Part shown: one piece after another, positions 6,274 through 6,665 of the stretch
Position numbering within the stretch: the first letter of the stretch is position 1
Layout of the letters: the number at the start of each line of letters is the position of its first letter
Assembly: GCA_037134495.1 (NCBI GenBank)
Contig: JBAXMC010000001.1
Span: forward strand, 1 to 58,933
Origin: Myxococcaceae bacterium
GTDB lineage: Bacteria; Myxococcota; UBA727; JABDBI01
Direction of reading: 5' to 3'
DNA: 58,933 nucleotides
Notes under the pieces: generated by a model
Told to the model about the DNA's origin: nothing
Databases searched by the model: none
The model's input: only the letters and a program-made list of their open reading frames with translations
Translations under genes and position numbers: made by a program

Positions 6274-6276
6274 GGT

Positions 6277-6305
6277 TTGACATCCTTGGCCGAGGGCATT
6301 ATGTT
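6277..6305 (+). promoter_or_regulatory. Candidate sigma70 promoter (TTGACA-17 nt-TATGTT), conserved at 31568..31596
   Basis: Perfect -35 at 6277-6282, a 17-nt spacer, and -10 TATGTT at 6300-6305. The same architecture recurs at the paralogous locus. It overlaps the RBS region of the divergent wHTH gene. Confidence 0.45.
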
Positions 6306-6311
6306 GCCCTG

Positions 6312-6372
6312 GCCTTTAAGTGGGTGCCGTTTCCATACCCTCTAAAAGTTAGGAAACGGCTTCGTTTTTTTT
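6312..6372 (+). ncRNA. Candidate ~60-nt small RNA or transcribed leader ending in an intrinsic-terminator-like hairpin
   Basis: It lies downstream of the candidate promoter. A 9-bp stem GCCGTTTCC/GGAAACGGC (6326-6360) is followed by TTCGTTTTTTTT. The hairpin position is conserved, with a different inner stem, at 31617-31658. Confidence 0.35.
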
Positions 6373-6391
6373 CGTAAACACCATGTTTACG
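6373..6391. promoter_or_regulatory. Perfect 8+8 palindrome CGTAAACA-cca-TGTTTACG (candidate operator)
   Basis: Seen directly in the sequence. An equivalent palindrome with the same CCA centre sits at the same relative position in the paralogous locus (31666-31684). Confidence 0.35.
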
Positions 6392-6665
6392 AGCTTCATG
6401 CTAAATCAAACAACTTTTGAAAAGCAAGGGTTTTGCCTTACTTGTAGGAGCAAATCCATAATGTCCGCTTAAGCAAATTAAAAATGTCCTCTTGTCCCAT
6501 AAAATGTTTGTCATGAAGCAAGGCGACAAAGTCGCCGATAGTATTGAAAAGCCCAGCCATAGCGCACGTGCAACGCACGCGCGTGGGGCTGGGTAAATAT
6601 GCGTCGCAGACTCCTCGCGGCAATACCTATACAAGACCTGTGACCCGTTGATTTTTTAATCTTAT

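What the first reader, a model, noticed from the sequence alone, without database searches (positions are those of the whole stretch)
6274..6392. Conserved promoter-hairpin-palindrome module upstream of the wHTH gene: candidate divergent/antisense small RNA (locus A)
The ~120 nt upstream of the wHTH start (ATG at 6273, minus strand) recur upstream of its paralogue at 31556. I count 43 of 55 identical positions in the first block, about as conserved as the coding region. Read on the plus strand, the block is a near-textbook transcription unit. It has a perfect -35 TTGACA (6277-6282), a 17-nt spacer and -10 TATGTT (6300-6305). About 60 nt follow, ending in a 9-bp hairpin GCCGTTTCC/GGAAACGGC (6326-6360) and TTCGTTTTTTTT. 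The -35 box overlaps the wHTH RBS (AAGGA), and such an RNA would be antisense to the wHTH 5' leader. A perfect palindrome CGTAAACA-cca-TGTTTACG (6373-6391) follows the T-run. HTH_36-type wHTH proteins are typical of plasmid and phage replication or regulatory modules, where a countertranscript RNA controls the leader. Here the module is chromosomal and duplicated. There are two alternatives. The block may simply be the 5' UTR plus operator of the wHTH gene; the GGCC..GGGCA/TGCCC..GGCC hairpin would then be in that mRNA. Or it may be a terminator-containing leader controlling the downstream plus-strand ABC gene (6666).
Basis: partly seen in the sequence, partly recalled or inferred. Interest (0 to 1): 0.65.

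Follow-up and report, generated by a model that had tools for sequence, protein, structure and literature searches.

The report
Multicopy antisense-RNA control module of wHTH genes
The 120 bases flagged are part of a ~155-base regulatory module, repeated 28 times in this genome and over 110 times in its relatives, that most likely encodes a ~60-base antisense RNA made against the leader of a small DNA-binding protein gene, much as plasmids control their replication genes.

Summary
The promoter-hairpin-palindrome block is not duplicated but multicopy. A covariance model finds 28 copies in this 2-Mb MAG and 113 copies in 8 of 21 genomes of its family. It finds none in 17 genomes of other families of the order. 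Every copy checked lies head-to-head with a small DNA-binding gene or a decayed remnant of one: HTH_36 winged-helix genes of several subfamilies, or ORF6N+DnaA-domain-IV fusions.

All three modelled helices covary: 92% of cells are paired, and 24 of 27 pairs show double changes. I found a further helix, Hx, that is mutually exclusive with H1.

- Hx and the GC hairpin H2 fold better on the plus strand (p = 1e-9). H2 has 59 G.U against 0 A.C pairs.
- H2 is followed by at least 4 T in 8 bases in all 79 copies scored.
- TTGACA, then 16-18 nt, then TA, is kept upstream.
- The CACCATG hairpin H3 folds better on the minus strand. It sits at the predicted +1 of a conserved minus-strand TAnnnT promoter.

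Best reading (confidence about 0.6): convergent promoters give a ~60-nt cis-antisense RNA (Hx + terminator) against a ~120-nt structured wHTH leader. Nothing in Rfam matches. I class it as a new variant of plasmid-type countertranscript control.

The parts
5827..6273 (-). wHTH gene A (148 aa, HTH_36 winged helix). It is one of about 12 full-length type-1 paralogues in this genome.
   Evidence: ORF. Pfam HTH_36, E = 2.6e-6. 16 paralogous matches in the genome. Codon positions 1+2 are 87% identical among paralogues against 60% at position 3. AlphaFold model pLDDT 76; best PDB folds are RepA_N initiator N-terminal domain and MarR.
6283..6287 (-). Shine-Dalgarno AAGGA of wHTH A. Most other copies have GGAG instead, 6-10 nt from the ATG.
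   Evidence: Sequence. Alignment of upstream regions.
6277..6305 (+). P(+): -35 TTGACA (6277-6282), 17-nt spacer, -10 TATGTT (6300-6305). Predicted start of the small RNA is about 6311-6313.
   Evidence: 10 of 12 consensus match. -35 is TTGACA, TTTACA, TTGACT or TTGACG in 65 of 65 distinct copies, and TA follows at a 16-18 nt spacer in 59 of 65. The final T of the -10 is kept in only 34 of 65.
6288..6314 (.). Hairpin H1 (GGCCGAGGGCA / TGCCCTGGCC) with the -10 box in its loop. It covaries but shows no strand preference. It probably forms in the wHTH leader (minus strand).
   Evidence: Helices 1-2: 9 of 9 pairs have double changes, and 84-91% of cells are paired. Strand test: 32 against 18 copies, p = 0.17.
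6312..6325 (+). Helix Hx (GCCU 6312-6315 / GGGU 6322-6325), the 5' hairpin of the predicted small RNA. It uses the end of the H1 3' arm, so it excludes H1.
   Evidence: RNAfold of 6312-6372. Across 64 distinct copies the helix is 5.2 bp, against 4.52 +/- 0.11 with permuted partners (0 of 2000 reach it), 3.9 when shuffled, and only 3.3 bp on the minus strand. 30% of its pairs are G.U.
6326..6372 (+). Hairpin H2 (GCCGTTTCC 6326-6334 / GGAAACGGC 6352-6360) plus T-run 6361-6372. This is the intrinsic terminator of the plus-strand RNA.
   Evidence: Helices 3-5: 96-100% of cells paired. G.U 59 against A.C 0. Plus strand more stable in 56 against 16 copies, p = 2.5e-7. At least 4 T in 8 in 79 of 79 copies; mean stem energy -18.4 kcal/mol.
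6373..6391 (-). Hairpin H3 (CGTAAACA-cca-TGTTTACG): variable arms around an invariant CACCATG. It is the predicted 5'-terminal stem-loop of the wHTH mRNA.
   Evidence: Helix 6: 8 of 9 pairs have double changes. The minus strand is more stable in 26 against 10 copies, p = 0.002. It lies 7 nt downstream of the conserved minus-strand TAnnnT.
6398..6427 (-). P(-): candidate promoter of wHTH. -10 TAGCAT (reverse complement of 6398-6403), 18-nt spacer, -35 TTGCTT (reverse complement of 6422-6427). Predicted start about 6391. This is the last conserved element of the module.
   Evidence: T, A and T of TAnnnT are each at least 90% conserved in 81 copies, while the three bases between them vary. Homology among copies ends just beyond it. 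It matches only 7 of 12 consensus positions, so the scan does not list it.
31116..31556 (-). wHTH gene B, a type-1 paralogue 62-65% identical to A.
   Evidence: Pfam HTH_36.
31566..31724 (+). Module copy B: P(+) 31568-31596, H1 31579-31605, Hx 31603-31616, H2 31617-31658, H3 about 31664-31686, then the P(-) tail.
   Evidence: Covariance-model hit of 118.7 bits. Promoter scan. Folds. Compensatory H2 stem CCTCCC/GGGAGG.
5808..8976 (.). 3.17-kb segment (wHTH A, module, 768-aa ABC-ATPase-like gene) that is absent from a same-genus relative. It is bounded by an imperfect direct repeat of the tgt 3' end (5794-5809 and 8944-8959).
   Evidence: blastn against L123: window 3002-5807 continues at 8977. 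Junction sequences. Direct repeat D3. Pfam ABC_tran.

Best explanation
The region 6274-6430 is one copy of a lineage-specific regulatory module. It lies between two convergent promoters, in front of a small winged-helix DNA-binding gene.

Proposed workings:
1. A weak distal promoter on the minus strand (TTGCTT, 18 nt, TAGCAT) starts the wHTH mRNA at about 6391. The leader is ~120 nt long and folds, 5' to 3', into a terminal hairpin H3 with loop CAUGGUG, then the complement of H2, then H1, then in most copies a hairpin H0 next to or covering the Shine-Dalgarno sequence.
2. A strong proximal promoter on the plus strand (TTGACA, 17 nt, TATGTT) lies between the gene and that leader. It fires in the opposite direction and makes a ~60-nt RNA (about 6312-6372).
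3. That RNA consists of a short 5' hairpin Hx and the terminator hairpin H2 with a U tail. It is fully complementary to the middle of the leader, about 25-90 nt upstream of the ribosome-binding site.
4. The small RNA is inferred to hold wHTH expression down. It could do so by duplex formation (refolding of the leader and/or RNase III cleavage) and by collision of the converging polymerases.

This resembles how pSK41 RNAI, pMV158 RNAII and related countertranscripts control Rep genes.

Shown here: the module's conservation, the helices, their strand asymmetry, the promoter and terminator signatures, and the constant linkage to the gene.

Inferred: that both RNAs are made, their exact ends, and that the effect is repression.
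For: Copy number and linkage:
- 28 copies in this genome and 113 in 8 of 21 family genomes. None in 17 genomes of other families of the order.
- Each copy examined abuts the 5' end of a small DNA-binding gene on the opposite strand, or a decayed remnant of one.

Structure:
- 92.1% of cells are paired against 69.8% in shuffles. 24 of 27 pairs have double changes, with 558 compensatory cells.

A plus-strand RNA:
- H2 has 59 G.U and 0 A.C pairs.
- H2 is more stable on the plus strand in 56 against 16 copies (p = 2.5e-7). Hx+H2 together: 58 against 17 (p = 1.4e-9).
- Hx is 5.2 bp on the plus strand against 3.3 bp on the minus strand, and beats permuted partners in 2000 of 2000 trials.
- Hx competes with H1 for the same bases. 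It is therefore most simply selected in an RNA that starts inside H1, which is where the promoter predicts.
- The T-run has at least 4 T in 8 in 79 of 79 copies.
- The -35 is kept although the neighbouring stems vary freely, and the -35 to TA spacing is fixed at 16-18 nt.

The minus-strand mRNA:
- TAnnnT with T, A and T each at least 90% conserved marks the outer edge of homology.
- H3 starts at its predicted +1 and folds better on the minus strand (26 against 10, p = 0.002).
- H0 is slightly better on the minus strand. In the C29/ORF6N type it is GCUCUCC/GGAGAGC, which pairs the SD.

Precedent:
- pSK41 RNAI acts about 100 nt upstream of the RBS of a RepA_N gene, and the pPR9 Rep N-terminal domain is pfam13730, the same family as here.
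- pMV158 RNAII is a 5' tail plus a terminator hairpin.
- The best fold matches of the wHTH are RepA_N initiators.
Against: - All RNA ends are predictions.
- The -10 of P(+) keeps its last T in only 34 of 65 distinct copies.
- P(-) matches only 7 of 12 consensus positions, and the promoter preferences of this uncultured lineage are unknown.
- H1 covaries strongly yet cannot be part of the predicted small RNA, and it shows no strand preference. Its role is unexplained.
- The small RNA does not cover the ribosome-binding site. My simulation of SD accessibility with and without the RNA gave no consistent direction (13 up, 19 down, 6 unchanged), so repression rather than activation is assumed by analogy.
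- The copies are related, so the strand statistics are not fully independent.
- The covariance-model alignment leans towards the modelled structure.
Confidence: 0.6

Rival explanations
1. The module is only a structured 5' leader. The whole block is the untranslated leader and promoter of the wHTH gene. The hairpins act in the mRNA, for example in stability, RBS masking or protein binding. The plus-strand promoter and terminator look-alikes are by-products, and no small RNA is made.
For: A conserved minus-strand TAnnnT lies at the distal edge, and H3 sits at its +1. H0 lies next to or over the SD and is slightly better on the minus strand. H1 forms on either strand. The leader folds well as minus-strand RNA, z = -5.05 for locus A.
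Against: H2 and Hx are plus-strand structures: G.U 59 against 0, 5.2 against 3.3 bp, p = 1e-7 to 1e-9. An A-run before a hairpin has no known role in a leader, whereas the T-run after it on the plus strand is universal. TTGACA is invariant although it lies in a stem whose partner varies.
Confidence: 0.14
2. A divergent, non-overlapping small-RNA gene. The wHTH mRNA starts at a proximal promoter, for example using the AT-rich H1 loop on the minus strand (AATAAT/CATAAT). The plus-strand RNA would then be a neighbouring small RNA whose promoter the wHTH protein controls, as with OxyR/OxyS or GcvA/GcvB. It would act in trans or on other copies.
For: The H1 loop reads as a good -10 on both strands: CATAAT in locus A, AATAAT in most type-1 copies. 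Transcription-factor genes divergent from the small RNA they control are a known arrangement (established knowledge). 28 similar RNAs in one cell could cross-talk.
Against: There is no -35 for such a promoter; the position holds the invariant H2 base GGCACC. It leaves the conserved H3 and the distal TAnnnT tail unexplained. H3 folds better on the minus strand, which implies minus-strand transcription through it.
Confidence: 0.12
3. A DNA-level element of a mobile or replicating unit. The hairpins would work as single-stranded DNA on the plus strand (an origin, single-strand initiation site or recombination site) recognised by the Rep-like wHTH or DnaA-domain-IV protein. The unit would spread as a selfish cassette.
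For: The proteins resemble initiator DNA-binding domains: RepA_N folds; weak RepL, RP-C, Phage_rep_O and DnaD_N matches; Bac_DnaA_C in the ORF6N type. Presence varies strongly between close relatives, with 1, 14 and 28 copies in one genus. Both window loci are absent at the same sites in relatives. G.T pairs are also tolerated in DNA hairpins.
Against: The repeated unit ends exactly at a promoter on one side and at the stop codon on the other. It has no terminal inverted repeats or target duplications of its own. The invariant positions are those of a -35, a -10 and a U-run. No relatives were found on 72,556 plasmids or 50,697 phages. The proteins lack any catalytic or helicase-loading domain.
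Confidence: 0.08
4. A leader or attenuator for the downstream plus-strand gene (the ABC-like gene at 6666). P(+) would drive that gene, and H2 would be a regulated terminator.
For: In locus A the wHTH, the module and the ABC-like gene form one 3.17-kb indel. In several copies a plus-strand gene starts 60-100 nt after the module.
Against: The downstream genes are unrelated: an ABC-like gene, nuoE, a nucleotidyl transferase and others. In C5, C74 and C139 they are convergent, and at C6 no ORF of 70 aa or more starts within about 750 nt of the module. No anti-terminator alternative to H2 was found. Hx abuts H2 rather than competing with it.
Confidence: 0.03

Closest known systems
pSK41-type RNAI control of RepA_N initiator genes (staphylococcal theta plasmids; PMC5703833)
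   Same: A small countertranscript with stem-loops, made from its own promoter inside the leader of a gene for a winged-helix initiator-type protein. It is complementary to the leader well upstream of the RBS (about 100 nt in pSK41, about 25-90 nt here). A stem-loop at the translation start is part of the design. The related plasmid pPR9 carries a pfam13730 (HTH_36) N-terminal domain behind the same control region. The best fold matches of the wHTH here are RepA_N N-terminal domains.
   Different: Here the unit is chromosomal and has 28 copies per genome. The proteins are only 146-188 aa (up to 317) and lack the initiator's C-terminal domains. The RNA is shorter (~60 against ~83 nt), with a 4-6 bp 5' hairpin directly abutting the terminator. 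There is an extra conserved 5'-terminal hairpin with a CAUGGUG loop. There is no sequence or Rfam similarity. Function is untested.
pMV158 RNAII / CopG control of repB (PMC4485353)
   Same: A minimal antisense RNA consisting of a short 5' part, a single terminator hairpin and a U tail. It is made from a strong promoter convergent with the rep promoter. A DNA-binding protein belongs to the same circuit.
   Different: RNAII covers the repB translation start, whereas the RNA here does not reach the RBS. RNAII has a 17-nt unpaired tail, whereas here the 5' part is a small covarying hairpin. pMV158 is a rolling-circle plasmid with an HUH initiator.
repABC ctRNA, and the transcription-attenuation antisense RNAs of pIP501 (RNAIII) and pT181 (RNAI)
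   Same: A countertranscript with a sigma-70-type promoter and an intrinsic terminator, placed just upstream of a replication-initiator gene. Alternative leader structures decide expression. The wHTH gives weak RP-C (RepC N-terminal) matches.
   Different: No terminator-like hairpin plus U-run was found in the minus-strand leader, so attenuation is not indicated. There is no Rfam ctRNA match. The setting is not a replicon.
Chromosomal type I toxin-antitoxin loci with 5'-UTR-targeting antisense RNAs (hok/sok, ldr/rdl, tisB/istR-1, symE/symR)
   Same: Multicopy chromosomal cassettes. A strongly structured, long leader with a 5' hairpin and a masked SD. A short antisense RNA from a strong promoter that pairs far upstream of the RBS. 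Presence varies between strains.
   Different: The protein is a 148-aa DNA-binding winged helix, not a small membrane peptide. No evidence of toxicity exists.

Membership tests
Plasmid-type countertranscript (ctRNA) control of an initiator gene | A small RNA is transcribed from its own promoter on the strand opposite to the target's leader. | tested here: inconclusive
   A conserved TTGACA-(16-18 nt)-TA motif and plus-strand-only helices fit this.
Plasmid-type countertranscript (ctRNA) control of an initiator gene | The RNA ends in an intrinsic terminator hairpin that is part of its functional structure. | tested here: met
   H2 is a GC-rich covarying stem (mean -18.4 kcal/mol) followed by at least 4 T in 8 in 79 of 79 copies.
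Plasmid-type countertranscript (ctRNA) control of an initiator gene | The target mRNA starts beyond the antisense gene, so that the two RNAs overlap. | tested here: inconclusive
   A conserved distal TAnnnT, and H3 at its +1 with a minus-strand fold preference, support this. The mRNA start is not mapped.
Plasmid-type countertranscript (ctRNA) control of an initiator gene | The unit resides on a replicon and controls a complete replication initiator, and hence copy number. | tested here: not met
   The copies lie between chromosomal housekeeping genes such as tgt and nuoE. The proteins have only the wHTH plus a short tail. No plasmid or phage relatives were found.
Rfam antisense/ctRNA families (ctRNA_p42d, ctRNA_pGA1, ctRNA_pND324, ctRNA_pT181, CopA, RNAI, Sok and others) | A match to the family covariance model. 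| tested here: not met
   No Rfam 15 match at gathering score in the window. None at E up to 5 around either locus, apart from a chance SAM-SAH hit at 13.7 bits.
Intrinsic (Rho-independent) terminator | A GC-rich stem-loop immediately followed by a U-run on the transcribed strand. | tested here: met
   9-bp stem at 6326-6360, then TTCGTTTTTTTT. The signature is universal in the family and specific to the plus strand. Function is not testable here.
Sigma-70-type promoter | A -35 TTGACA and a -10 TATAAT-like hexamer 16-18 nt apart. | tested here: met
   10 of 12 matches at both window loci. The -35 and the TA of the -10 are conserved family-wide, but the last T of the -10 is kept in only 52% of copies. 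Activity is not testable here.
Type I toxin-antitoxin system | The antisense RNA's target encodes a small (under about 60 aa), usually hydrophobic, toxic peptide. | tested here: not met
   The target encodes 146-317-aa DNA-binding proteins. Toxicity is untested.
MITE / insertion-sequence-like mobile repeat | Terminal inverted repeats and target-site duplications flank the repeated unit. | tested here: not met
   Homology between copies ends at the distal promoter and at the stop codon, with no terminal inverted repeats. The 3.17-kb indel around locus A has a 16-nt imperfect direct repeat of the tgt 3' end but no inverted ends.

The most novel reading that the evidence does not exclude
The units may be self-contained selfish or regulatory cassettes descended from plasmid or phage replication-control regions. 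In each, a truncated initiator-type DNA-binding domain (Rep N-terminal-like wHTH, or ORF6N fused to DnaA domain IV) would be harmful or potent when over-made, for example by occupying origin or DnaA-box DNA. It would be kept in check by its own cis-antisense RNA. That would be a type-I-like addiction or immunity module whose 'toxin' is a DNA-binding protein, expanded to dozens of copies in a host-associated, reduced-genome Myxococcota-like lineage.
Probability: 0.15. Interest if true: 0.8.

Novelty: new variant of a known kind. Interest (0 to 1): 0.58.

Why it matters
If the reading holds, this is a new family of structured RNA and cis-regulatory elements that is absent from Rfam. It has unusually rich comparative support: more than 110 copies, four or five covarying helices, and opposite strand preferences for neighbouring helices.

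It would show that the antisense-RNA logic known from plasmid copy-number control has been taken over by a chromosomal gene family with 28 members in an uncultured, probably host-associated bacterium.

It also gives a ready-made covariance model for annotating these genomes. And it offers a compact module of ~155 nt (two promoters, one terminator, a structured leader) that can be tested in E. coli.

The link to initiator-like and DnaA-domain-IV proteins raises the question of what dozens of such DNA binders do in a 2-Mb genome.

Tried and rejected
2. Known RNA families: there was no Rfam hit at gathering score or at E up to 5. There are no tRNA or tmRNA genes in the window.
3. Leader of the downstream ABC gene: rejected, because the downstream genes are unrelated and often convergent.
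4. The palindrome as a paralogue-specific operator: rejected. The arms do not follow the recognition helix. The conserved core is too short and is asymmetric.
5. H0 as an operator: within type 2, the same recognition helix goes with GTCAAC-N5-GTTGAC or with CTGTCA-N2-5-TGACAG, which have different spacings.
6. A conserved leader peptide starting at the ATG in the CATGGTG loop: the frame and length are not conserved. By my reading it would be MVFTKKNEAVS* in A and MVHL* in B.
7. A second plus-strand promoter upstream of H1, which would place H1 in the small RNA: none is conserved across subfamilies.
8. The apparent plus-strand bias of H1 (G.U 67 against A.C 18 in the fitted alignment): it disappears in an alignment-free test (32 against 18, p = 0.17).
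9. Simulation of SD accessibility with the small-RNA site blocked: no consistent direction, and start codons were partly mis-assigned.
10. YUNR motif in the Hx loop: enriched (57% against 33% shuffled) but equally so on both strands, so not informative.
11. Homologues outside the lineage: only 16 relatives among 5.8 billion proteins, none named. None on plasmids or phages. The first genome-contig scan found nothing.
12. RNAalifold on the plain MAFFT alignment failed to recover the stems, so a covariance-model alignment was used instead.
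Full report
**Observation.**
- TTGACA at 6277-6282, a 17-nt spacer, and TATGTT at 6300-6305. The scan tool scores this 10 of 12.
- The 9-bp hairpin GCCGTTTCC (6326-6334) / GGAAACGGC (6352-6360), followed by TTCGTTTTTTTT (6361-6372).
- The perfect palindrome CGTAAACA-cca-TGTTTACG (6373-6391).

The wHTH gene (5827-6273, minus strand) matches Pfam HTH_36. Locus B, upstream of the paralogue ending at 31556, has the same parts in the same order. The terminator scan missed the hairpin only because its loop is 17 nt long.

**The module is multicopy.** The genome that holds the window is a 2.0-Mb MAG in 270 contigs.
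- It has 16 matches to the wHTH protein, about 12 of them full length at 55-66% identity.
- nhmmer found 24 copies of the upstream block.
- About ten 'orphan' copies turned out to sit, in the same head-to-head arrangement, in front of a second, distant HTH_36 subfamily (MSIRAQKILDYL...RQQTLAEEF.CSRRTIGR).
- A covariance model built from 11 type-1 copies (A2, R1) found 25 copies in this genome. It found 54 more in six other genomes of the same family.
- A second model built from those hits (R2) found 113 copies in 8 of 21 family genomes: 28, 23, 17, 14, 14, 13, 3 and 1. It found none in 17 genomes of five other families of the order.

In every copy checked, the gene beside the module, reading away from it, encodes a small DNA-binding protein or is a decayed remnant of one; in some copies the contig ended or no intact ORF was found. 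The intact genes are HTH_36 winged helices of at least five subfamilies, with weak RepL, RP-C, Phage_rep_O and DnaD_N likeness. In several copies the protein is instead an ORF6N domain fused to DnaA domain IV.

Type-1 proteins have only 16 relatives among 5.8 billion proteins, none named. They have none on plasmids or phages. NCBI titles of the nearest genomes read 'Myxococcales bacterium' MAGs.

**Anatomy.** Read on the plus strand, going away from the start codon, the parts are:
- The SD. It is GGAG in most copies. Loci A and C61 carry a 9-nt deletion and use AAGGA.
- H0, a hairpin whose 3' arm overlaps TTGAC.
- TTGACA.
- H1, with the TA-rich '-10' in its loop.
- A short variable linker.
- H2 plus a T-run.
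- H3, with variable arms around an invariant CACCATG.
- A tail that reads TAnnnT on the minus strand, preceded 18 nt upstream by T(T/G)GCTT.

Homology between copies stops after the tail.

**Covariation.** On the 81-row model alignment A3:
- 92.1% of pair cells are standard pairs, against 69.8% in shuffles.
- 24 of 27 pairs show changes on both sides, with 558 compensatory cells.
- The covariation score is 0.598 against 0.228, and 0 of 500 shuffles reach it.
- Sliding the partners gives only 25-62% paired.

The alignment was fitted to the structure, and the copies are related, so these numbers lean high. The stems nevertheless have wholly different sequences in different subfamilies.

**A further helix.** The last 4-6 nt of the H1 3' arm pair with the 4-6 nt just before H2. 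Examples are GCCA/TGGT, GACC/GGTC, GATAC/GTGTC, AACTC/GAGTT and CAGCT/GGCTG.
- Over 64 distinct copies this helix, Hx, averages 5.2 bp.
- With permuted partners it averages 4.52 +/- 0.11 bp (0 of 2000 reach the observed value). After shuffling it averages 3.9 bp.
- On the minus strand it averages only 3.3 bp. 30% of its pairs are G.U.

Hx and H1 exclude each other. RNAfold of 6312-6372 gives Hx directly stacked on H2.

**Which strand folds.**
- In A3, H2 has 59 G.U and 0 A.C pairs. H3 has 18 against 32. H1 has 67 against 18.
- An alignment-free comparison of fold energies on the two strands gives these results:
  - H2 is better on the plus strand in 56 against 16 copies (p = 2.5e-7).
  - Hx+H2 is better on the plus strand in 58 against 17 (p = 1.4e-9).
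  - H3 is better on the minus strand in 26 against 10 (p = 0.002).
  - H1 shows no preference: 32 against 18 (p = 0.17).
- H0 is slightly better on the minus strand, at 6.6 against 5.9 bp.
- The T-run after H2 has at least 4 T in 8 in 79 of 79 copies, and at least 5 in 81%.

Adjacent helices of one module therefore prefer opposite strands. That is what two overlapping, oppositely directed transcripts predict.

**Promoters.**
- P(+): the -35 is TTGACA in 47 of 65 distinct copies, and TTTACA, TTGACT or TTGACG in the rest. TA follows at a spacer of 16-18 nt in 59 of 65, and never at 13-15 nt. The last T of the hexamer is kept in only 34 of 65.
- The -35 stays fixed while the H0 arm that pairs with it changes between subfamilies. 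It is also the same in front of unrelated DNA-binding proteins. Both points suggest a common reader such as RNA polymerase.
- P(-): T, A and T of TAnnnT are each at least 90% conserved, while the bases between them vary.
- In locus A, P(-) is TAGCAT (reverse complement of 6398-6403), with TTGCTT (reverse complement of 6422-6427) 18 nt upstream. The seventh base downstream is about 6391, the outer base of H3.
- In subfamilies that lack H3, the same TAnnnT abuts the T-run.

**Mechanism proposed.** Convergent promoters about 80 nt apart produce two RNAs:
- a ~60-nt plus-strand RNA (Hx, H2, U tail);
- the wHTH mRNA, with a ~120-nt leader that begins with H3 and contains the full complement of the small RNA.

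By analogy, the small RNA is taken to reduce wHTH expression through pairing and polymerase collision. The analogies are:
- pSK41 RNAI, which pairs about 100 nt upstream of the RBS and causes an RBS-masking stem-loop. The related pPR9 Rep has a pfam13730 N-terminal domain (PMC5703833).
- pMV158 RNAII, a 5' tail plus a terminator hairpin (PMC4485353).

The sign and route of the effect are inference. A simple accessibility simulation gave no consistent answer. H1 is unexplained in detail. It encloses the -10 of P(+), it cannot be in the small RNA, and it competes with Hx for the same bases. It may therefore be the leader-side alternative structure.

**The palindrome.** An operator that diverged with each paralogue is unlikely, for four reasons:
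- Five different arm sequences go with the identical recognition helix SKATLSRLIRE.
- Only (G/A)CA-CCA-TG(C/T) is constant.
- Subfamilies without H3 exist.
- H3 prefers the minus strand.

A 5'-terminal stem-loop with a conserved loop is the better reading. Its position at +1 would also suit a repressor.

**Protein.** The AlphaFold model (pLDDT 76) is a winged helix with a helical tail. The best PDB matches are RepA_N initiator N-terminal domains (4pql, 4pt7, 5kbj) and MarR-family repressors, at weak scores (E about 1e-3, TM 0.43). Among type-1 paralogues, codon positions 1+2 are 87% identical, position 3 is 60%, and the module is 67% identical despite its many compensatory changes.

**Context.**
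- In a same-genus relative (tgt 90% identical), tgt is followed directly by the homologue of window 8977 onward.
- So 5808-8976 (wHTH A, the module and a 768-aa ABC-ATPase-like gene) is a 3.17-kb indel.
- It is bounded by an imperfect 16-nt direct repeat of the tgt 3' end.
- Locus B is likewise absent upstream of nuoE in a relative.
- The genes downstream of the module differ at every copy and are often convergent. This rules out a dedicated leader for the ABC gene.
- Copy number within one genus runs 1, 14 and 28.

**Limits.** All transcript ends are predicted from motifs. The promoter rules of this lineage are unknown. The statistics treat related copies as separate observations.

**Verdict.** The operator reading and the ABC-leader reading are not supported. 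The module is a new, Rfam-absent variant of plasmid-type countertranscript control, in an unusual chromosomal multicopy setting.

Noticed in passing
window 5794-5809 and 8944-8959 (indel 5808-8976): wHTH A, the module and the 768-aa ABC-ATPase-like gene form a 3.17-kb segment that is missing in a same-genus relative. It is flanked by an imperfect direct repeat of the last codons of tgt (GCAGATGGCGAGATCT / GCAGAATTCGAGATTT). Earlier notes on this genome describe other cassettes that duplicate the 3' end of a gene (pdxA, a sigma factor), so a common integration route into gene ends may exist.
   Followed up: partly
G000 C46:8088-8220 (L066), C24:12261-12393 (L067); G005 L073, L109, L118; G011 L120: The same module stands in front of ~275-aa proteins that fuse an ORF6N domain (E = 4e-29) to DnaA domain IV (Bac_DnaA_C, E = 8e-26). 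These would be DnaA-box-binding domains without the rest of DnaA. The copies lack hairpin H3.
   Followed up: partly
window 6449-6470 and 6472-6493: A 22-nt near-tandem repeat (AGCAAATCCATAATGTCCGCTT / AGCAAATTAAAAATGTCCTCTT) lies just beyond the module. A similar GTAGGAGC(A/C)AATC(C/G)ATAATGTCC stretch follows the module copies on C97 and C13. Its function is unknown.
   Followed up: no
L093 (G002 C36:5444-7200): A module copy that lacks the -35 and the wHTH gene starts 3 nt after the CCA end of a tRNA gene. This looks like the scar of an element integrated at a tRNA.
   Followed up: no
window 6274-6287; G000 C61:5275-5290: Loci A and C61 share a 9-nt deletion that removes the usual GGAGCAAT ribosome-binding site. 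As a result the -35 of P(+) lies between a substitute AAGGA and the ATG.
   Followed up: partly
wHTH C-terminal parts (C29 317-aa protein; G002 type-1-like proteins P0013-P0016; type-2 proteins): Otherwise distant subfamilies share a C-terminal motif, F(P/A)CLDG(L/H)SGRP / YDGCSGRPTFED, with no Pfam match. It suggests a common unknown second domain.
   Followed up: no
window 4672-5811 (tgt): Beyond its own clade, the closest tgt homologues (60-70% identity) come from MAGs labelled Babeliales/TM6, Chlamydiae and Gammaproteobacteria. This hints at gene exchange among intracellular bacteria, or at mislabelled MAGs.
   Followed up: no
G000 C5:10946-11097, C30:14636-14784, C3:12103-12251: Some module copies are intact although their wHTH gene is truncated or gone. 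C5 keeps only a 25-aa remnant and has lost the -35. C30 has a deletion that fuses the coding remnant to H1.
   Followed up: partly
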